Part shown: piece by piece, positions 4,405 to 52,181 of the stretch
How the letters are laid out: the number at the start of each line of letters is the position of its first letter
Numbering within the stretch: the stretch's first letter is position 1
Source: a virus
Lineage: Duplodnaviria > Caudoviricetes
IMG/VR virus record: IMGVR_UViG_3300046786_000203
Span: 1 to 52,505 of that record
Reading direction: 5' to 3' (one strand)
Length of the DNA stretch: 52,505 bases
Notes under the pieces: generated by a model
Database searches by the model: none
What the model was told of the DNA's origin: nothing
What the model saw: only the letters and a program-made list of their open reading frames with translations
Program-made: the position numbers and the translations under genes

Positions 4405-4675
4405 TTATAATTACTACTGTGAAGTTGAATACGACCGTGCTGATATCAAGCCGGGTGTCTATTCGTTCAGGGCAGTCAACGGCAACACGCTAGGTTACAA
4501 CCGTTTAATCACACTCAGCAACAAAATCTGGCGCCAAGGGCCTCATGGCGGAGTAAAGATTGTTAAAAGTAGACACGAATTCGCGGGTACTCAGTATGTC
4601 ACCCGTGATGAAGAAGTGATGAAGAAATTCATGTGGGTTAAACTTCAAGCCCAACCATACAACAAAGGAGCGTAA
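4397..4675 (+). CDS. Hypothetical protein
   Basis: GTG start overlapping the previous stop, within ORF 4268..4675. Confidence 0.55.
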
Positions 4676-33412: not shown

Positions 33413-33889
33413 CTATACATATCGAATGTCGCTAAAACCTTCCTCTTTAGTAGGTGGTTCGTAATTATCAATCATATTCTTCATTACGTGAGCAGGGATG
33501 TTTTTACCTTCACGTGAATTCAATCGACGGTCATGTTCTTCCTTTTCAGGTGTTTTAAACACGACCGCGATTGCTTCATAGTCAGGCAACATCTTGAACT
33601 TCTTTGCTCGGGTGGCAACTGTTGTAGAAGTTTGATCCCAAATAATGTCACACTTGTTTGCTTTAGCGACTAACACTTGGTTAGCCATTAAGCGAACAGC
33701 GATTGGCATGTATTCATCAAACACTTCACTGTAAGTCTTGCCTTGCTTTTCGGCATATTCTTCAACAAACCTATCAGTAGACACGACTACAGTATTATCG
33801 GGCCAAGATTGACTCTTGATCCAAGTACTCTTACCTGATGCTGGCACACCAATCAACATGTACAATTTACATTGATGGTCCATTTCCAC
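33413..33889 (-). CDS. P-loop kinase (AAA_33, polynucleotide-kinase-like)
   Basis: GVPASGKST, STD, IIWDQT and R...R lid motifs. Confidence 0.82.
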   Translation of the reverse strand: MEMDHQCKLYMLIGVPASGKSTWIKSQSWPDNTVVVSTDRFVEEYAEKQGKTYSEVFDEYMPIAVRLMANQVLVAKANKCDIIWDQTSTTVATRAKKFKMLPDYEAIAVVFKTPEKEEHDRRLNSREGKNIPAHVMKNMIDNYEPPTKEEGFSDIRYV

Positions 33890-34469
33890 TCCTCATACCA
33901 ACTGTTCCGCCTTCTGCTTCGATACGCTTGATAACGTCTTCAAATAAGATAGGTGTAAAATCAGTTTGCTCAACGCAAACACAATGATAACGAACATCAT
34001 TTTCATCACTGTATAATGTTGCACCTGTCTTAGCGTCAATACCCCTAGCCTTCTTTACTCTGTTAGAATGTAAGTGACCGTGAATGTTAACACCAAAACG
34101 ACCTAACGATGCCTCATGTAACGGGATGTGACTTAAAATCATACCGTTCATTACATGATACGCACGTAATTCACGGAAGTATAATCTATATTCATCATCA
34201 CGAAAGATATCATGATTGCCACGAATTAACACTTTGTCTCCGTTTAAGCGGCTCATGATGCTTAATGACTTCCTGTTGATAACTACATCACCTAAGTGAT
34301 AAACTTTATCATTAGGACGCACTGTATCATTCCAACGCTTGACCATTTCTTCATCCATCTCATTTGGATCAGTCCATGGTCGGATCTTCGTCACGCCATC
34401 TGCTTCTGTGAATCTACACACTCCGGCGTGGCCAAAGTGCGTGTCACTCGTTAAAAATACTGCTGGCAT
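33867..34469 (-). CDS. Calcineurin-like metallophosphoesterase
   Basis: SDTHFGH, HLGDV, GNHD, SHIP and IHGHLH motifs. Confidence 0.9.
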   Translation of the reverse strand: MPAVFLTSDTHFGHAGVCRFTEADGVTKIRPWTDPNEMDEEMVKRWNDTVRPNDKVYHLGDVVINRKSLSIMSRLNGDKVLIRGNHDIFRDDEYRLYFRELRAYHVMNGMILSHIPLHEASLGRFGVNIHGHLHSNRVKKARGIDAKTGATLYSDENDVRYHCVCVEQTDFTPILFEDVIKRIEAEGGTVGMRSGNGPSM

Positions 34470-34699
34470 TATACCCTCTCTTTCTTTACTCGTCCGATAC
34501 GACTAGCTTTGTTCCAATCGTATTGTACTCCGTCTGGGCACTTGCCGTTCTTTACAGAATCGACACCGAACATACCTACAATCTCAAAGTCCGGACCTGT
34601 GATAGTCACAAACTCGTTCATTACTTTAGCTGTGTGCATTGCTTCATCCAATGTCATTACATCCAATGAAACAATTTTACCTTTTACATTAAACATCAT
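34469..34699 (-). CDS. Hypothetical protein
   Basis: Coupled between the two phosphatase genes. Confidence 0.6.
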   Translation of the reverse strand: MMFNVKGKIVSLDVMTLDEAMHTAKVMNEFVTITGPDFEIVGMFGVDSVKNGKCPDGVQYDWNKASRIGRVKKERV

Positions 34700-35156
34700 T
34701 ATTCCTAAAAGTTCGCCAATCATCAATGTTTGGCTTTTCATCTTCATCATATGTCCAACCCAATGCCTTCATCATGCGATGCTTGACAAGCAAGTTAGGA
34801 CTGCGAAATCTGCCAGTGTCTTCAAAACCCATCATGACACCGACTTCACAAACTGCACCACTGCGGCAGATACCTGCATAGCAATGGACAACAACATTCA
34901 TTCTATTGTCTTTGGCATGTTGCAACAAACGAACCAATTCATTTGCTTGTTCTTGACTGCAACGCATTGCCTCATCCAATGCAAAATCATCCTTTTCAAT
35001 ATCCAAGAATTCAAAATTGTGAATCTCTTTGAACTTGTGTGCAGGTGTTGGTCTCCAGCTTGCAGGGTCAACGATGCTAATCAGCATACTATTCTCACCG
35101 GCTTCGTGATGAAATCTCTTTGGGATATCATCAGCCGCACAATTTTCAATCCACAT
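34689..35156 (-). CDS. Cys-based (PTP/dual-specificity-like) phosphatase
   Basis: VHCYAGICRS = CX5R P-loop. Confidence 0.82.
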   Translation of the reverse strand: MWIENCAADDIPKRFHHEAGENSMLISIVDPASWRPTPAHKFKEIHNFEFLDIEKDDFALDEAMRCSQEQANELVRLLQHAKDNRMNVVVHCYAGICRSGAVCEVGVMMGFEDTGRFRSPNLLVKHRMMKALGWTYDEDEKPNIDDWRTFRNNDV

Positions 35157-36044: not shown

Positions 36045-37472
36045 TTATGAAAGATCGTAACGATCCTTCATAACTGTCTTCAACATGATAGCTTCTGGTG
36101 TGAAGTCTTCCAAGTCACCTGACAGTACAGATGTTGCAACAGCTGGGCTGAAGCCAGAGACAAGAGCGGTACCACTCTTATCGAACTTGACAGGGGTGTT
36201 GCCGTATGCGGCATTCAAGTTCCAGAACACAACTTTAGGAAGAGTGTAACCTGCTTCGCTAAACTTGCGCGCCATCATCTTGATAGCCGATTCGTCCTTG
36301 CCATCAACAGCTCCGTCGAACTGCATGTCAGAGAAGATAACAAGAGTTTCAGGCATTTCTGCTTGTGGAACCTTGTTAGCAACTGCGGTCTTCAACACTA
36401 GGTCAAACGCCGCATTCAAGTTGGTGTTAGCAACTTCGCCAGTGTTCATTTGGTCAATCTTTTGATTGATGTTACCCTTCAAGTTGACCAACTTAGGAGT
36501 ACGACTGAATGTTAGGAAACAGTCAGCGAACTTACCCTTGTTCTTGTCAGCAAAGTACAAGCCAAGAGACAGAGCAACATCTAGACAGGTCAAGCCTGAC
36601 TTAGAGTTGTAACCGCCTGCTGGACAAGTCATTGAACCTGACGAGTCAACCATTGGCAACACGTTAGCGTCACCGATGTAGTTAGGCAATGCATCCCATT
36701 GGGCTTGCAATGCATCCAACTCAGTCTTAGACATAGTTGAACGGCTGTATCGGTTGATAGCACCCTTCAACACATCGTAGGGGAATACTGCGCCTGCGTT
36801 AATCTTAACACCTGCTTCACCCTTAACCAACTTAGTTACGTATTCAGCGTAAGTTGTACCATTACGGCCAAACGCCTTCTTGTAACGTGCATGTGCCACT
36901 GAAGGTACATGGTTGTAGTTGATGTTATCCCAATCCTTAGCACACATTTGTGTTTCCACAACGTTAGTAAGCGCAACTAGGCTCTTACGATATTGCTTAG
37001 GAGTCATTCCGAAGAATTCACGGATTTCACGTGCGACTTCACCCTTACGAGGAGTCCACTTTGCCGCTAGACCATTACGAGCACGTAGTGCATCGCCAAG
37101 CATAGTGTATGCCTTAGCCTTTACAGGCTGAGTCTTGAACACCAGCAAGTCATCGTAACGACCGATTTCTGGGACCTTTGCCATCAAACGCATAGCGTCT
37201 TCTGGCGCATTCTTTTCTAGATAGACAAGAATGTCACGGAACACTTGACGTTCACCGGAACCACCACGGGCATCACGTGCCCACTGTGCAATACGCAGTG
37301 CGAGGTCAATGTTTTCAGCGTATGCCGCAACGAATGCGGGTACGATGTTCTTACCACGGCTTGCGCCGATGTTATAAAACAAGTCAACACATGCGTTAGC
37401 ACTTGACTTGCGAGCCTTCATACCGTTAGTGGTACGAACTTCTTGATTCTTGATTGCTTCTGCGAATTGCAT
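36045..37472 (-). CDS. DUF2828-family protein (TROVE/Ro60-like helical domain plus vWA)
   Basis: ARDARGGSGER, GRYDDL, AAKWTPR, YRK.L and VPSVA motifs; C-terminal vWA with DSSGSM MIDAS, FSDMQFD, VFWNL, SGFSP. Confidence 0.85.
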   Translation of the reverse strand: MQFAEAIKNQEVRTTNGMKARKSSANACVDLFYNIGASRGKNIVPAFVAAYAENIDLALRIAQWARDARGGSGERQVFRDILVYLEKNAPEDAMRLMAKVPEIGRYDDLLVFKTQPVKAKAYTMLGDALRARNGLAAKWTPRKGEVAREIREFFGMTPKQYRKSLVALTNVVETQMCAKDWDNINYNHVPSVAHARYKKAFGRNGTTYAEYVTKLVKGEAGVKINAGAVFPYDVLKGAINRYSRSTMSKTELDALQAQWDALPNYIGDANVLPMVDSSGSMTCPAGGYNSKSGLTCLDVALSLGLYFADKNKGKFADCFLTFSRTPKLVNLKGNINQKIDQMNTGEVANTNLNAAFDLVLKTAVANKVPQAEMPETLVIFSDMQFDGAVDGKDESAIKMMARKFSEAGYTLPKVVFWNLNAAYGNTPVKFDKSGTALVSGFSPAVATSVLSGDLEDFTPEAIMLKTVMKDRYDLS

Positions 37473-37498: not shown

Positions 37499-37554
37499 AC
37501 AGGATGCGCTTTTTTACTATTATGAAAAGTATTAAAGTTGCTGAAAGCATCCTA
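37499..37554 (-). ncRNA. CAGCAA-stem RNA 1 (leader of the DUF2828 gene; CAU anticodon-like loop)
   Basis: AGGAUGC-UUU-CAGCAA...GCAUCCU-GU; inner hairpin with UUCAUAA loop. Confidence 0.75.
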
Positions 37555-41880: not shown

Positions 41881-41944
41881 ACAGGATGCATTTTTACGGT
41901 TTTGATTAAAAGTCAAATGTATAAATGTTGCTGGTAGCATCCTA
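41881..41944 (-). ncRNA. CAGCAA-stem RNA 4 (Lys UUU anticodon stem-loop)
   Basis: AGGAUGC-UAC-CAGCAA...UUUGA-CUUUUAA-UCAAA...GCAUCCU-GU. Confidence 0.78.
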
Positions 41945-45942: not shown

Positions 45943-46019
45943 TGGCGCACCGTAGGGGACTCGAACCCCTGGCCTCTTGCGTGACAGGCAAGCGATCTAA
46001 CCAACTGAGCTAACGGTGC
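45943..46019 (-). tRNA. tRNA-Asp(GTC)
   Basis: Cloverleaf, G73. Confidence 0.95.
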
Positions 46020-48113: not shown

Positions 48114-48287
48114 TCATTTAGGTTCAGGAATTTTTCTTAGTGATTCTTTTTTCATAAGACAATCACGTTGAGTCCCAAACTTAAATACTCGCAAGTATTC
48201 AATGCCATCAATAAGTTGAATGGCTTTAGTGTCCTTGCAATAAAATTTCTCCTTATTGCGGAGATTTTCAAAGTAAATTGTTTTCAT
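48114..48287 (-). CDS. Small hypothetical protein (57 aa)
   Basis: AGGAG RBS; MKTIYFENLRNKEKFYC...IDGIEYLRV. Confidence 0.6.
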   Translation of the reverse strand: MKTIYFENLRNKEKFYCKDTKAIQLIDGIEYLRVFKFGTQRDCLMKKESLRKIPEPK

Positions 48288-48301
48288 TATTATCTCCTAC
48301 A

Positions 48302-48378
48302 TGGTACCCCAGATGGGACTCGAACCCACAAATACAACGACCTCAACGTTGCGTGTATACCAATTCCACCACCGGGGC
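48302..48378 (-). tRNA. tRNA-Leu(GAG), short variable region
   Basis: Loop UUGAGGU; no long variable arm. Confidence 0.85.
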
Positions 48379-48386
48379 ATTATAAA

Positions 48387-48499
48387 ACAGGATACATTCT
48401 TGACGAATGCTCTACCAATGAGCTAATCTGGCATGAAGCCAAATACTGGAGTCGAACCAGTAACCTATCGTTTGTGATAGTTTTGCTGTATGTATCCTA
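48387..48499 (-). ncRNA. CAGCAA-stem RNA 6: circularly permuted tRNA-like (YrlA-like)
   Basis: AGGAUAC-AUA-CAGCAA; CUAUC/GAUAG arm; T arm ACUGG-UUCGACU-CCAGU; loop-closed acceptor AUUUGGC/GCCAGAU; D arm UAGCUCAUUGGUAGAGC; GUAUCCU-GU. Confidence 0.85.
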
Positions 48500-48503
48500 A
48501 AAT

Positions 48504-48560
48504 TGGCGGGACATTTTTGATTGCAGTTAAGATACTTGCCAGCATCTATTTTTTTGTCCC
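48504..48560 (-). ncRNA. Mini RNA: acceptor-like stem ending in GCCA, no D or T arm
   Basis: GGGACA...UGUCCC-G-CCA between two family members. Confidence 0.35.
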
Positions 48561-48565
48561 ATAAC

Positions 48566-48688
48566 TGGTGTTGCCGCTGGGATTCGAACCCAGATTTCTT
48601 CCTTGACATGGATTAAGAAGAATGCTGAACGGACTCTAAAAACAGAGTCACCCTTTTATAAGCGTCCTAACCATTAGACGACAGCAAC
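48566..48688 (-). tRNA. tRNA (Asp-GUC-like) with a 48-nt insertion carrying the CAGCA module
   Basis: Acceptor GUUGCUG/CGGCAAC-ACCA, D and T arms intact; insertion contains GACUCU-G-UUUUU-AGAGUC-CGUU-CAGCAU. Confidence 0.7.
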
Positions 48689-48689
48689 A

Positions 48690-49055
48690 TTAAATTCCTA
48701 TATTCTTTCTTCCTCGTTTTCTAGCAAATGAAATACTGCCCTTCATTGCTGTAGCACAAAGAAACTTGTCACCTTTTTTCAAAGTGAATTCGTTTAGTCT
48801 AAATCCTTTGATGACTCTATCACCATTCCACCATTGACGTTGAGTTTCAATGTAACCTAGTTCTTCTAACTGATTACGCAACTTTGTAAACTCGTCATGG
48901 TCTTTGTGGGAAAGACTATAACTCTTATCGTATCCTTTTAAGATTTTGACAATATCTTCATGAGTAGGATTATTGCGATCTTTGATAAAGTCATGTTCTT
49001 CTCTGACTGCTACATCGCAAATAAACTGCTCGTCAATTGTAAATTGTTTCAGCAT
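48690..49055 (-). CDS. Hypothetical protein
   Basis: AAGGAG RBS before MLKQFTIDE. Confidence 0.7.
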   Translation of the reverse strand: MLKQFTIDEQFICDVAVREEHDFIKDRNNPTHEDIVKILKGYDKSYSLSHKDHDEFTKLRNQLEELGYIETQRQWWNGDRVIKGFRLNEFTLKKGDKFLCATAMKGSISFARKRGRKNIGI

Positions 49056-49069
49056 TGTTACTCCTTGAT

Positions 49070-49145
49070 TGGTGGCGACGGTCGGACTCGAACCAACCAC
49101 ACACGGATTTTCAATCCGTTGCTCTACCTGATGAGCTACGTCGCC
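49070..49145 (-). tRNA. tRNA-Phe(GAA)
   Basis: Cloverleaf. Confidence 0.93.
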
Positions 49146-49162
49146 ACTTAAAACCTATTAGG

Positions 49163-49235
49163 GGTGTTCTATGGGGAACGATCCCATACTACCAAGTTCA
49201 CAGCATGGTGTGCAGACCACTACACTAAGAACACC
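49163..49235 (-). tRNA. tRNA-His(GTG), no encoded CCA, atypical T loop
   Basis: G-1:C73, loop CUGUGAA, T loop AUCGUUC; flanks extend the acceptor stem. Confidence 0.8.
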
Positions 49236-49276
49236 CCTAATAAGTCTTTTGATAAATAAAGTTTTAAGGAAACAAT

Positions 49277-49606
49277 ATGGACGAACTAATCGCCGATATA
49301 AAAAATATCTTGCATCTGGCGCCGGCTAGAAGTTCTATTATAATGTTTAAAGCATTAATTGAAAAGCAATCAGGGTCAGTTAAAGTAACTATAGAATCTA
49401 CATTAGAATACTATGAGACACGAACTAACGATGACTGGTCTACTCCTATACTAACCAACCAACGACACATGGAAAAAATCAGAGATACTGGTCTTGCTAT
49501 TGGTTCATTAGAAGCCTTTTTGCATGATAGAAATATCACGTATGATATTTCATATCAAGAAGGTGAAGCTGAAGAAATTATTACAGAGGTAACAATATAT
49601 GCTTAA
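49277..49606 (+). CDS. Hypothetical protein
   Basis: ATAAATA upstream and AAGGA RBS. Confidence 0.6.
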   Translation: MDELIADIKNILHLAPARSSIIMFKALIEKQSGSVKVTIESTLEYYETRTNDDWSTPILTNQRHMEKIRDTGLAIGSLEAFLHDRNITYDISYQEGEAEEIITEVTIYA

Positions 49607-50995: not shown

Positions 50996-51113
50996 ACAGG
51001 TTCTCTTTTTTCGTGCTACCACTACACTAACGTGATGACCAATTCACGTCCGGGATTCGAACCCGGCCTCTCTTTTTTACAGAAAGATTATTTTAATTGC
51101 TGAAAAGAACCTA
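50996..51113 (-). ncRNA. CAGCAA-stem RNA 8: circularly permuted tRNA with a Tyr GUA loop (YrlA-like)
   Basis: AGGUUCU-UUU-CAGCAA; UCUUU-CUGUAAA-AAAGA; CCGGG-UUCGAAU-CCCGG; ACGUGA/UCACGU loop-closed acceptor; D arm UAGUGUAGUGGUAGCAC; AGAACCU-GU. Confidence 0.88.
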
Positions 51114-51272: not shown

Positions 51273-51367
51273 TGGCAGAGAGCAGAGGAGTCGAACCCCA
51301 TCCCATTCTTCATGAGAACCTAGTTTTCAAGACTAGTCGGCACACCAACGCGCCTGCATTACTCTCT
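51273..51367 (-). tRNA. Non-canonical (8/4) tRNA-Ser(TGA)
   Basis: 8-bp acceptor AGAGAGUA/UGCUCUCU, 4-bp T stem, 6-bp D stem, long variable arm, GCCA end. Confidence 0.75.
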
Positions 51368-52070: not shown

Positions 52071-52078
52071 ATTAAAAA

Positions 52079-52175
52079 GGCCCACTGCCTAGGATTCGAA
52101 CCTAGATTACCATGGACGGAATCGAACCGTCTCTTCGGGGTGCGCGCCAACCCGGGGACCCAACCCGCTAGTGGA
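52079..52175 (-). ncRNA. tRNA-like RNA with two tandem T arms
   Basis: GACGG-UUCGAUU-CCGUC and CUAGG-UUCGAAU-CCUAG inside a CCACU/AGUGG stem. Confidence 0.6.
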
Positions 52176-52181
52176 TAAATT

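What the first reader, a model, noticed from the sequence alone, without database searches (positions are those of the whole stretch)
48566..48688. Normally ordered tRNA with the CAGCA module inserted: a possible link between tRNA and the permuted RNAs
Seen: a 123-nt tRNA with intact acceptor, CCA, D and T arms has an insertion just after the D arm. It contains GACUCU-G-UUUUU-AGAGUC-CGUU-CAGCAU, which is the family's 3' strand joined by a U loop to its 5' strand. This is the circular permutation of RNAs 6 and 8 at about the same breakpoint. Deleting 48 nt restores CUUCC-AUGUCAA-GGAAG (GUC anticodon) and a 75-nt tRNA. Inference: an evolutionary intermediate, a chargeable tRNA tethered to the Ro-like protein, or an unusual intron.
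Basis: partly seen in the sequence, partly recalled or inferred. Interest (0 to 1): 0.85.

Follow-up and report, generated by a model that had tools for sequence, protein, structure and literature searches.

The report
tRNA-shaped RNA carrying a Ro60-type handle
This phage gene encodes a complete, CCA-ended tRNA look-alike whose anticodon stem carries a conserved extra arm, the same arm that marks the phage's Y-RNA-like small RNAs, so it is most likely a tRNA-shaped partner of the phage's Ro60-like protein and not an intron-bearing or broken tRNA.

Summary
Observation confirmed. Window 48566-48688 (- strand) is a 123-nt RNA with acceptor stem, encoded CCA, D and T arms (Rfam tRNA 44.3 bits). 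A 48-nt insertion splits its anticodon stem. The insertion is a hairpin followed by CAGCA. This is the closing stem plus CAGCA of the window's Y-RNA-like RNAs with the two ends joined.

The element is a conserved class. There are 36 distinct full-length copies in IMG/VR phage contigs and 7 more found by covariance model alone. Five of those 7 are in cultured phages (Citrobacter Ci1, Cronobacter S13, KVP40-type Vibrio V09), where two are annotated tRNA-OTHER or pseudo. In 43 sequences 98.9% of cells pair and 19 of 28 pairs show compensatory changes, including the insertion hairpin. CAGCA is exact in 6 of the 7 copies not selected for it.

The DUF2828 protein folds like Ro60, and its leader carries the module in 59 of 61 distinct loci.

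Against an intron: the anticodon-like loop varies, 8 of 36 loops have 8 nt, and RNA-library contigs keep the insertion.

Binding, charging and function are untested. This scan found the same kind of RNA before on other DNA. Class: new variant of a known kind.

The parts
48566..48688 (-). whole tRNA-shaped RNA with the module insertion (123 nt)
   Evidence: Rfam tRNA 44.3 bits. Own covariance model R1 119.3 bits against at most 52.7 for ordinary tRNAs. Not called by ARAGORN.
48682..48688 (-). acceptor stem, 5' strand (positions 1-7)
   Evidence: 7 of 7 acceptor pairs show compensatory changes in 43 sequences.
48664..48679 (-). D arm (positions 10-25), with the GG of the D loop
   Evidence: D stem 100% paired; pair 12-25 is CG in 28, GC in 14 and UA in 1.
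48660..48662 (-). lower anticodon stem, 5' strand CUU (positions 27-29); pairs with 48598-48600
   Evidence: Middle pair is UA in 26, GC in 16 and CG in 1, never broken. L127 has CCU/GGG.
48612..48659 (-). 48-nt insertion (positions 30-77)
   Evidence: Read on the sequence. Present in all 43 aligned homologs.
48632..48649 (-). insertion hairpin GACUCU-GUUUUU-AGAGUC, i.e. the family's 3' strand, a loop, then its 5' strand. In this copy G38-C58 closes it with U39 bulged.
   Evidence: Core helix 100% paired, 3 of 5 pairs covary; closing pairs beyond the bulge change GC to AU and UA to CG. Fold.
48623..48627 (-). CAGCA motif, 4 nt after the hairpin
   Evidence: Part of AGR-N7-CAGCA, 11 in the window against 3.17 expected. 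Exact in 6 of 7 homologs that were not selected for it; the other has CUGCA.
48601..48611 (-). anticodon-like hairpin CC-AUGUCAA-GG (positions 78-88)
   Evidence: Loop is AUGUCAA in 21 of 36; 8 other loop sequences occur in 15 of 36; 8 of 36 loops have 8 nt.
48577..48593 (-). T arm with a UUCGAAU loop (positions 96-112)
   Evidence: 100% paired, 3 of 5 pairs covary.
48566..48576 (-). acceptor 3' strand, discriminator A, encoded CCA
   Evidence: CCA is encoded in 35 of 36. Discriminator is A in 19, G in 16 and C in 1.
48386..48498 (-). neighbouring Y-RNA-like RNA in permuted order (module, anticodon-like hairpin, T arm, loop-closed acceptor, D arm, module 3' strand)
   Evidence: Weak Rfam YrlA match, 29.6 bits against a cut-off of 69. 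Fold, parts.
50998..51112 (-). second permuted tRNA-like family member
   Evidence: Fold. Module with an exact 7-nt complement 115 nt on.
36045..37472 (-). DUF2828/DUF7788 protein, a structural Ro60 homolog and the presumed partner
   Evidence: Pfam. AlphaFold2 model pLDDT 92.9. The top 13 PDB matches are all Ro60/TROVE/Rsr, E 1e-8 to 5e-6.
37501..37553 (-). short family member in the leader of the DUF2828 gene
   Evidence: A module lies within 200 nt upstream of the gene in 59 of 61 distinct loci.

Best explanation
The RNA is a non-decoding, tRNA-shaped member of the phage's Y-RNA-like family.

Shown: it keeps a full tRNA body (acceptor stem, encoded CCA, D and T arms). It sits in a tRNA operon. 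A conserved, covarying, bulged hairpin followed by single-stranded CAGCA branches from its anticodon stem.

Inferred: the hairpin plus CAGCA is the docking site ('handle') for the phage's Ro60-like ring protein (DUF2828/DUF7788). In the other family members the same handle is formed by the paired 5' and 3' ends. The tRNA body is cut out of the operon transcript like a tRNA, by RNase P at the 5' end. The tRNA body and the variable anticodon-like loop are the second, effector-facing half. They would either tether the protein to something that recognises tRNA, or offer a tRNA look-alike as a decoy or sensor. This would act in tRNA damage control, next to the RNA end-healing genes encoded beside the protein.

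The insertion is not removed.
For: 1. Conservation and structure. The alignment holds 36 distinct full-length copies from 46 IMG/VR loci. In it 99.2% of 1008 cells pair, 14 of 28 pairs have changes on both sides, and the covariation score is 0.461 against 0.123 in shuffles (0 of 500 reach it). Slid controls give 40-49% pairing. With 7 more copies found by model R1 alone, there are 43 sequences with 98.9% paired and 19 of 28 pairs compensatory. The insertion hairpin core is 100% paired.

2. A discrete class. R1 scores class members at 65-137 bits and ordinary tRNAs at 52.7 or less.

3. Same module as the family. The order stem strand, 3 nt, CAGCA, anticodon-like hairpin, T arm is collinear with the permuted RNA at 48386-48498. 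So is D arm, linker, other stem strand. Across all held loci there are 275 distinct ends-out modules and 15 strictly end-joined ones.

4. Link to the protein. The model has pLDDT 92.9 and its top 13 PDB matches are Ro60/TROVE/Rsr. A module lies 70-92 nt before the start codon in most of the 59 of 61 distinct loci that have one. Four of 5 long contigs with this RNA encode PF11443. In Ci1 and S13 two such RNAs follow the gene within about 0.5-0.7 kb.

5. A bulged helix is what Ro60 recognises on animal Y RNAs (passage in PMC12135203).

6. Not decoding. The loops vary. The window has an ordinary tRNA-Asp(GUC) at 45943-46019.

7. The insertion is kept in RNA-library contigs. X2 record 12 covers 48348-48706 and X1 record 4 covers 48375-48658, both with 0 differences and no joints.

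8. Context. A polynucleotide-kinase-like ATPase (33413-33889) and a phosphoesterase (33867-34469) lie beside the gene.
Against: - No tool here shows that the protein binds this RNA. The link is by fold, gene neighbourhood and analogy.
- The RNA is dispensable for Ro-like phages. Only 1 of 5 DUF2828 records has it. One record rated 100% complete (359 kb) has none at E <= 1e-10, though only 150 of its 175 candidates were scored. Felix O1 has none.
- In this window it lies 11 kb from the protein gene.
- Rfam's YrlA model does not match it, and matches its neighbour only weakly (29.6 bits against a cut-off of 69).
- GUC is kept in 21 of 36 exact AUGUCAA loops (plus AUUGUCAA once), which could mean some Asp-like identity.
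- In the 36-sequence set, CAGCA, UCCAU, GGA-G--AU and the T loop are invariant by construction, because the search pattern demanded them.
- The RNA data are contigs from metatranscriptome libraries. They can contain DNA, drop rare forms, and show no ends or mature small RNAs.
- The window's copy deviates from the consensus closing pairs (UCC where 35 of 36 have UAC).
- No RNA ligase was found among the 30 window ORFs scanned with Pfam.
Confidence: 0.58

Rival explanations
1. It is an intron-containing tRNA, tRNA-Asp(GUC) in this window. The 48-nt insertion is cut out and the halves are ligated to give a 75-nt decoding tRNA. The conserved hairpin plus CAGCA would be the recognition signal for the splicing machinery.
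For: Removing positions 30-77 restores a 5-bp stem with a canonical 7-nt loop having U33 and A37. The lower-stem pair 28-42 covaries. GUC loops occur in 21 of 36 exact AUGUCAA loops (plus AUUGUCAA once). RNA end-healing genes are nearby.
Against: At 48 nt the insertion is far below group I intron size, and no intron family matched at E <= 10. It lies inside the stem between positions 29 and 30, not at 37/38. I saw no conserved bulge-helix-bulge by eye. That is a weak test, because the flanks are variable and A/U-rich. Orthologs would give different anticodons (GUC, UCU, UUC, UCG, GUU, CAU-like), and 8 of 36 loops have 8 nt. Acceptor stems and discriminators vary. The window already has tRNA-Asp(GUC). 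No contig in 4 RNA libraries skips the insertion, while two span it. No ligase was found among the 30 ORFs scanned.
Confidence: 0.08
2. It is a working tRNA that keeps the insertion. It is charged, and perhaps decodes, while the side arm recruits the Ro-like protein. That would make it a protected or marked tRNA.
For: It has an intact acceptor stem and encoded CCA, and the D and T loop nucleotides needed for the L-shape are conserved. It is spaced 6-7 nt after tRNA-Arg(ACG) in other loci, like any operon tRNA.
Against: The anticodon-like loop, acceptor stem and discriminator are not conserved as an identity set. Eight of 36 loops have 8 nt. From general knowledge of the ribosomal A site, and untested here, a 48-nt branch on the anticodon stem should clash with the 30S decoding site.
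Confidence: 0.1
3. The hairpin plus CAGCA is not a Ro handle. It would serve another factor, for example as a processing or stability signal for a phage or host RNase, or as the site of another phage protein. The linkage with DUF2828 would then be only gene neighbourhood.
For: Binding is not shown. Many DUF2828 phages lack this RNA. The module differs in sequence from the published Ro-binding motifs seen here (the CGAA bulge in phiLo Yrl RNAs, passage) and from the Rfam YrlA consensus.
Against: The module sits in the DUF2828 leader in 59 of 61 distinct loci. It is found in every DUF2828 phage group examined here (freshwater contigs, Ci1, S13, V09, Felix O1). The architecture of paired ends, internal loop and tRNA-like domain matches Y RNAs.
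Confidence: 0.15
4. It is a decaying pseudo-tRNA hit by a selfish or chance insertion, with no function. Several databases in effect annotate it this way.
For: Annotated tRNA-Pseudo or tRNA-OTHER in Ci1 and S13. KVP40-type phages are reported to have three low-scoring 'pseudo' tRNAs (passage in PMC3468402).
Against: There are 43 distinct sequences from distant phage groups with 98.9% of cells paired and compensatory changes in every helix, the inserted one included.
Confidence: 0.03

Closest known systems
YrlA-type bacterial and phage Y RNAs bound by Rsr/Ro60 (Rfam RF02553; Chen et al. 2014, PMC4201824, passages read; Wang et al. 2018, bioRxiv 10.1101/312249, passages read)
   Same: A tRNA-like L-shaped body (T and D arms, acceptor-like stem) joined to a helix that binds a Ro60-family protein. 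It is encoded near that protein. The Ro helix leaves the body where the anticodon stem is.
   Different: YrlA has the T arm 5' of the D arm, an acceptor stem closed by a loop, no free CCA and no anticodon loop (Wang et al. passages). Here the order is that of a normal tRNA, the acceptor is open with encoded CCA, an anticodon-like loop is present, and the Ro-type helix is a closed hairpin. Rfam YrlA does not match it.
Deinococcus radiodurans Yrn1 (as described in Chen et al. 2014, passage)
   Same: A Y RNA whose tRNA-like part has the D-like arm before the T arm and a potential anticodon arm. This shows that Y RNAs exist in more than one arm order.
   Different: In Yrn1 the 5' and 3' ends still form the Ro stem, there is no acceptor stem with CCA, and the D arm is partial.
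Phage Ro60-Yrl particles (Thermus phage phiLo; PMC12135203, abstract and passages read; PDB 9KOP, 9L5Y)
   Same: A phage-encoded Ro60 homolog with phage-encoded Y-like RNAs next to the gene. 9KOP and 9L5Y are among the top structural matches of the window's protein.
   Different: The phiLo Yrl RNAs are stem-bulge-stem RNAs with a CGAA motif and no tRNA body. The protein here belongs to the DUF2828/DUF7788 sequence family.
tmRNA and viral tRNA-like structures (as compared in Wang et al. 2018)
   Same: A CCA-ended tRNA mimic that carries an extra functional domain.
   Different: Those are charged, and their extra domains serve translation or replication. The Rfam tmRNA score here is 17.9 against a cut-off of 47. 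Charging is untested here.
tRNA introns (bacterial group I in the anticodon loop; archaeal/eukaryal bulge-helix-bulge). These features are recalled, not taken from a call.
   Same: An insertion in the anticodon arm whose removal restores a cloverleaf.
   Different: The size, position and lack of any matched intron family differ. The insertion is itself the conserved, covarying part, and no spliced form is seen.
Permuted tRNA genes of the red alga Cyanidioschyzon merolae (recalled, no call)
   Same: tRNA parts occur in both circular orders within one genome.
   Different: Those are processed through a circular intermediate into ordinary tRNAs. Nothing here shows such processing.

Membership tests
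tRNA (Rfam RF00005) | Score at or above the curated cut-off, with acceptor, D and T arms | tested here: met
   44.3 bits against a cut-off of 29, full model 1-71. The helices covary.
tRNA (Rfam RF00005) | Continuous 5-bp anticodon stem with a 7-nt loop | tested here: not met
   59 nt lie where 11 are expected. ARAGORN makes no call. 8 of 36 homologs have 8-nt loops.
tRNA (Rfam RF00005) | Anticodon and identity elements conserved among orthologs | tested here: not met
   9 different loop sequences, 17 different acceptor 5' strands, and discriminator A in 19, G in 16, C in 1.
tRNA (Rfam RF00005) | Aminoacylation and decoding | not testable with these tools
   Needs acid-urea gels or charging assays.
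YrlA (Rfam RF02553) | Score at or above the curated cut-off | tested here: not met
   No YrlA match on 48566-48688 at E <= 10. The neighbour at 48386-48498 reaches 29.6 bits against 69.
YrlA (Rfam RF02553) | T arm 5' of the D arm; acceptor-like stem closed by a loop; no CCA end | tested here: not met
   The order is D, then T; the acceptor is open and CCA is encoded.
YrlA (Rfam RF02553) | Encoded near a Ro60-family gene | tested here: met
   It lies 11 kb from the DUF2828 gene in the window, and 0.5-0.7 kb from it in Ci1 and S13. Four of 5 long contigs with the RNA carry PF11443.
Y RNA (general) | A helix with a conserved bulge that Ro60 recognises | tested here: inconclusive
   A conserved bulged hairpin is present and covaries. 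Its sequence is unlike the published Ro sites seen here.
Y RNA (general) | Bound by a Ro60-family protein | not testable with these tools
   The protein is a structural Ro60 homolog. No RNA-protein test was available.
Group I or other known intron families | Match to an intron model; a spliced product exists | tested here: not met
   No intron family at E <= 10. There are no joints in 4 RNA libraries, and two contigs span the insertion. Contigs cannot exclude a rare spliced form.
tmRNA (Rfam RF00023) | Score at or above the curated cut-off | tested here: not met
   17.9 bits against 47.

The most novel reading that the evidence does not exclude
This RNA is the surviving 'monomer' from which YrlA-type permuted Y RNAs arise. 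In a tandem duplicate, reading from the module of copy 1 to the module of copy 2 gives exactly module, anticodon-like arm, T arm, acceptor closed by the spacer, D arm, module. This is the dimeric-tRNA origin proposed for YrlA. The RNA would also still be a live tRNA substrate, cut by RNase P, CCA-ended and possibly charged. A Ro60-type ring would then be physically tethered to the tRNA-handling or translation machinery, or to an anticodon nuclease it is meant to trap.
Probability: 0.2. Interest if true: 0.8.

Novelty: new variant of a known kind. Interest (0 to 1): 0.62.

Why it matters
Y RNAs that mimic tRNA are known, but all described ones lack a free CCA end and have their arms in permuted order. 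How they arose from tRNA is an open question. A dimeric-tRNA model is cited in Wang et al. 2018.

This RNA shows the same protein handle on an otherwise ordinary, CCA-ended tRNA body. Permuted relatives sit beside it in the same genome. That gives a concrete intermediate to test.

The class also occurs in cultivable phages: Citrobacter Ci1, Cronobacter S13 and KVP40-type Vibrio phages. There it has been filed as pseudo-tRNA or tRNA-OTHER, or left unannotated. Binding, processing, charging and its role in infection can therefore be tested at the bench. It also corrects annotation, because these are not broken tRNAs.

I found no paper describing a tRNA with an inserted Y-RNA module in six full-text searches. 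Subscription journals and the supplements of Chen et al. 2014, which list the phage YrlA candidates, could not be seen.

Tried and rejected
- **blastn against cultured phages.** Window 48200-49300 gave only ordinary tRNA-level matches. Homologs came from IMG/VR and, later, from model searches.
- **Second pattern scan.** A scan anchored on the D arm without CAGCA fixed the D-loop length too tightly. It returned only 6 loci, 5 already known. The sixth (L126) is a different odd tRNA-like RNA without CAGCA and was not pursued.
- **Pattern scan of genome contigs.** 0 matches. This says only that this exact pattern is absent from those genomes.
- **Single-sequence search of PDB sequences.** Nothing relevant. 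The profile search gave only weak TROVE/Ro60 matches, E 0.044-0.11. The structural search was decisive.
- **The search for homologous proteins.** It returned only close relatives. The alignment for folding came from the representative search.
- **Extra helix inside the insertion.** I looked for pairing between the AUAAAAGG segment and the A/U-rich segment after CAGCA. Some 'type B' copies can form GUAUAU/AUAUAC, GUAUUA/UAAUAC, GUAAA/UUUAC or GUAG/CUAC. These compete with the lower anticodon stem. Most 'type A' copies show nothing consistent. Left open.
- **Bulge-helix-bulge splice motif.** Looked for by eye only; none is conserved. This is weak.
- **Body similarity.** The tRNA body is not a copy of the window's tRNA-Asp. 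The 9 ordinary tRNAs that I picked from the top of the ordinary-tRNA hits to model R1 are all tRNA-Arg. The RNA directly follows tRNA-Arg(ACG) in L064, L045 and L017. This is a lead to its origin, not a result.
- **RNA-library contigs.** They show no ends, strand or abundance. Stretches without cover in runs X3 and X4 mean nothing.
- **Complex prediction.** Not used, because it takes no RNA.
- **Weaker model hits.** L131:2744-2867 and 2621-2736 (46 and 35.4 bits) were not inspected.
Full report
**What is there**

The window is a phage record. describes it as a virus record of 52,505 bases. It carries 36 ARAGORN tRNAs on the - strand between 38067 and 52425.

The finding at 48566-48688 (- strand) is not among those 36. 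Rfam's tRNA model nevertheless scores it 44.3 bits (cut-off 29), with 59 nt where 11 are expected in the anticodon region. Read on the sequence, it has:
- a 7-bp acceptor stem, discriminator A and encoded CCA;
- a normal D arm with GG in its loop, and a T arm with a UUCGAAU loop;
- after three pairs of the anticodon stem (CUU/AAG), a 48-nt insertion;
- then CC-AUGUCAA-GG.

The insertion holds the hairpin GACUCU-GUUUUU-AGAGUC, then CGUU, then CAGCA. The 123-nt sequence folds better than all 200 shuffles (z = -2.93).

In this copy the minimum-energy fold uses a local hairpin (UUCUUCUU/AGGAAGAA) in place of the split anticodon stem. Comparative data favour the split stem (see 'Conservation').

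**The family module**

The motif AGR-N7-CAGCA occurs 11 times in the window against 3.17 expected, and 0 of 100 shuffles reach 11. Eight occurrences lie on the - strand inside the tRNA region.

In seven of these the 7 nt before the 3-nt spacer have an exact reverse complement 53-148 nt downstream. So the two ends of a small RNA pair, and CAGCA follows the 5' strand. The eighth is the insertion, where the complement lies just upstream. The family's 3' strand and 5' strand are joined there by a loop.

Two of the 'ends-out' RNAs (48386-48498 and 50998-51112) enclose an anticodon-like hairpin, a T arm, an acceptor-like stem closed by a loop, and a D arm. The first gets a weak Rfam YrlA match, 29.6 bits against a cut-off of 69.

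Laid side by side, the tRNA-shaped RNA and the RNA at 48386-48498 are collinear in two blocks:
- stem strand, 3 nt, CAGCA, anticodon-like hairpin, T arm;
- D arm, linker, other stem strand.

They differ only in which pair of ends is open.

**Conservation**

The DUF2828 protein brought in 80 related IMG/VR loci. BLAST showed homologs of the insertion-bearing tRNA in several of them.

A motif scan of IMG/VR found 46 loci. Together with the loci already held, these gave 53 matches, 36 distinct full-length sequences, and one copy cut by a contig end.

On their MAFFT alignment the structure I wrote down pairs 99.2% of 1008 cells. Fourteen of 28 pairs have changes on both sides. The covariation score is 0.461 against 0.123 in shuffles (0 of 500 reach it). 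Sliding the partners gives 40-49% pairing. RNAalifold independently recovers the acceptor, D, T and insertion helices.

The insertion hairpin covaries. One pair is UA in 19, CG in 11, AU in 3 and GU in 3. Another is CG in 25 and UA in 11. The middle pair of the lower anticodon stem is UA in 25 and GC in 11, and is never broken.

A caveat applies to this set. CAGCA, UCCAU, GGA-G--AU and the T loop are invariant in it because the search pattern required them.

To remove that bias I built covariance model R1. It scores class members at 106-137 bits in IMG/VR loci and ordinary tRNAs at 52.7 or less. It found copies that the pattern had missed:
- L077, identical in L078 and L079;
- L127, in a 260-kb contig;
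- five in cultured phages: Citrobacter phage Ci1 (77.4 bits, annotated tRNA-Pseudo/tRNA-OTHER), Cronobacter phage S13 (90 bits, tRNA-OTHER), and three in KVP40-type Vibrio phage V09 (65-82 bits, in an unannotated stretch).

Six of these seven keep CAGCA exactly and one has CUGCA. L127 has CCU/GGG in the lower anticodon stem, a third pair type at the middle position.

In the 43-sequence model alignment 98.9% of cells pair and 19 of 28 pairs show compensatory changes. The hairpin core is 100% paired. The two closing pairs beyond a conserved 1-2-nt bulge change from GC to AU and from UA to CG in the T4-like phages. That alignment is fitted to the model, so it leans towards it.

The result is that both are conserved.

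**The protein**

ORF 36045-37472 (- strand) matches Pfam DUF2828 and DUF7788 and PHROG 850, 'RNA-binding protein' (E 1.6e-143). Sequence searches of the PDB gave nothing or only weak TROVE/Ro60 matches (E 0.044-0.11).

An AlphaFold2 model was built from an 87-sequence alignment. It has pLDDT 92.9 and pTM 0.92. Its 13 best PDB matches are all Ro60, TROVE or Rsr structures over the full length (E 1e-8 to 5e-6, TM 0.47-0.65), including Ro60 of Thermus phage phiLo. Isolated vWA domains rank below them. So 'Ro-like' is supported by fold.

The family is in 702 cultured-phage records. In mycobacteriophages it is annotated 'Ro-like RNA binding protein'.

**Link between module and protein**

- In 59 of 61 distinct upstream regions, a module lies within 200 nt before the gene, mostly 70-92 nt before the start codon. 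These regions come from 87 loci holding the gene's start; 25 were duplicates and 1 was too short.
- Four of 5 long contigs that carry the tRNA-shaped RNA encode PF11443. The fifth is a fragment rated 52% complete.
- In Ci1 and S13 two insertion-bearing tRNA-like RNAs and one ends-out RNA follow the gene within about 0.5-0.8 kb. This recalls the placement of Y RNA genes beside rsr.
- Felix O1 has four ends-out modules just after its gene.

Results that run against a tight link:
- Only 1 of 5 DUF2828 records holds the tRNA-shaped RNA. One record rated 100% complete has none, although only 150 of its 175 candidates were scored.
- Felix O1 has none.
- In this window the RNA lies 11 kb from the gene.

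The tRNA-shaped form is therefore an optional family member.

**Intron or not**

The anticodon-like loop is AUGUCAA in 21 of 36 copies. The others are AUUCAUAA (5), AUUCUAA (3), AUUUCAA (2), and five more sequences once each. Eight of 36 loops have 8 nt. Acceptor stems come in 17 variants. Discriminators are A in 19, G in 16 and C in 1. The window already has an ordinary tRNA-Asp(GUC), and the body is not a copy of it.

No intron family matches at E <= 10.

Freshwater metatranscriptome libraries hold the stretch. One contig covers 48348-48706 and another 48375-48658, both without a difference. No contig skips the insertion. These are contigs: they cannot show ends or rare forms, and they may include DNA.

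Taken together this speaks against splicing but does not exclude it.

**How it most likely works**

Shown:
- a conserved tRNA body in a tRNA operon (6-7 nt after tRNA-Arg(ACG) in three other loci);
- a conserved bulged hairpin plus CAGCA, shared with the ends-out family;
- a Ro60-fold protein whose gene leader carries the module.

Inferred:
- the module is the protein's docking site. Ro60 recognises a bulged helix on animal Y RNAs (passage in PMC12135203);
- the RNA is matured like a tRNA;
- the body and the variable anticodon-like loop face a tRNA-recognising partner, as a tether or as a decoy;
- the setting is tRNA damage control. A polynucleotide-kinase-like ATPase and a phosphoesterase lie beside the protein gene, and a jumbo-phage review places TROVE proteins with a tRNA-like partner among RNA-repair systems (passage in PMC7824862).

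**Comparison with what is known**

[quoted passage not shown] They lack a CCA end and an anticodon loop. A dimeric-tRNA origin has been proposed for them (passages in bioRxiv 10.1101/312249). Chen et al. 2014 note that YrlA and Yrn1 differ in arm order and 'may have originated from tRNAs'.

The RNA here works like a Y RNA, but it fails the defining YrlA features (arm order, closed acceptor, Rfam score). It is not a standard tRNA either.

A tandem duplicate of it, read from module to module, would yield exactly the permuted order, with the spacer closing the acceptor. That fits the dimeric model. The direction of change is unresolved.

KVP40-type phages were reported to have three low-scoring 'pseudo' tRNAs (passage in PMC3468402). 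These may be the same RNAs; I did not verify that.

Six full-text searches found no description of a tRNA with an inserted Y module. The supplements of Chen et al. 2014 could not be seen.

**Earlier notes of this scan**

After I had formed this reading, a look-up showed three earlier reports on other genomes: e1-5757804, e1-6004765 and e1-6004780. All describe 'tRNA carrying a Ro60-type handle' and reach the same conclusion. So the scan has found this kind of RNA before on other DNA.

**Verdict**

It is a new variant of a known kind, and interest is 0.62.

Noticed in passing
L128:7867-8104 (Citrobacter phage Ci1, OR515478.1 77084-77321) and L130:2498-2743 (Cronobacter phage S13): Two insertion-bearing tRNA-like RNAs stand in tandem 0.5-0.7 kb after the DUF2828 gene. 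They are annotated tRNA-Ser, tRNA-OTHER or tRNA-Pseudo. An ends-out module RNA of about 131-135 nt follows them (L128:8118, L130:2757). Ci1 also encodes a CCA-adding enzyme about 4 kb further on.
   Followed up: partly
L131:2096-2867 and 4426-4541 (Vibrio phage V09, KVP40 species, MT135026.1 about 162.7-165.2 kb): Three to five tRNA-order RNAs with the hairpin plus CAGCA module lie in a stretch with no annotation. Their anticodon-like loops differ (UUC, GUU and others). The DUF2828 gene lies about 10 kb away.
   Followed up: partly
L129:7716-8548 (Salmonella phage Felix O1, just after its DUF2828 gene): Four ends-out modules (AGACC...ACAGCAA ... GGUCUGG; 58-125 nt) lie between the first tRNAs. 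Felix O1 has no tRNA-order form.
   Followed up: no
window 33413-35156 (- strand): Just downstream of the Ro-like gene lie a P-loop kinase (AAA_33; PHROG polynucleotide kinase), a metallophosphoesterase (PHROG phosphoesterase) and a dual-specificity-phosphatase-like ORF. This is an RNA end-healing set. No ligase was found among the 30 ORFs scanned.
   Followed up: partly
window 52071-52181 (- strand): A 111-nt gap between tRNAs holds two T-arm-like hairpins in tandem (loops UUCGAUU and UUCGAAU) inside a closing stem. No tRNA is called there.
   Followed up: no
window 51278-51366 (- strand): Sub-threshold Rfam tRNA-Sec match (38.6 bits against 47) on a tRNA-like RNA with a long extra arm that ARAGORN does not call.
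   Followed up: no
L126:1862-1955 (IMG/VR contig of 90,886 bases): A different odd tRNA-like RNA. Its D arm and following bases resemble this class, but its extra segment is about 21 nt and has no CAGCA.
   Followed up: no
alignment A1, 'type B' copies (L086, L100, L108, L106, L124, L103): A covarying alternative helix can form between the bases right after the D arm and the bases right after CAGCA (GUAUAU/AUAUAC, GUAUUA/UAAUAC, GUAAA/UUUAC, GUAG/CUAC). It competes with the lower anticodon stem, so it may be a switch.
   Followed up: partly
L064:4612-4813, L045:2241-2441, L017:1372-1572: The tRNA-shaped RNA directly follows tRNA-Arg(ACG). The 9 ordinary tRNAs picked from the top ordinary hits to its model are all tRNA-Arg, which hints that the body derives from a duplicated tRNA-Arg.
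   Followed up: partly
window 41883-41943 (- strand): A short family member encloses a 5-bp stem with loop CUUUUAA, which is an anticodon loop of the tRNA-Lys(UUU) type. I saw it in the fold but did not test it.
   Followed up: no
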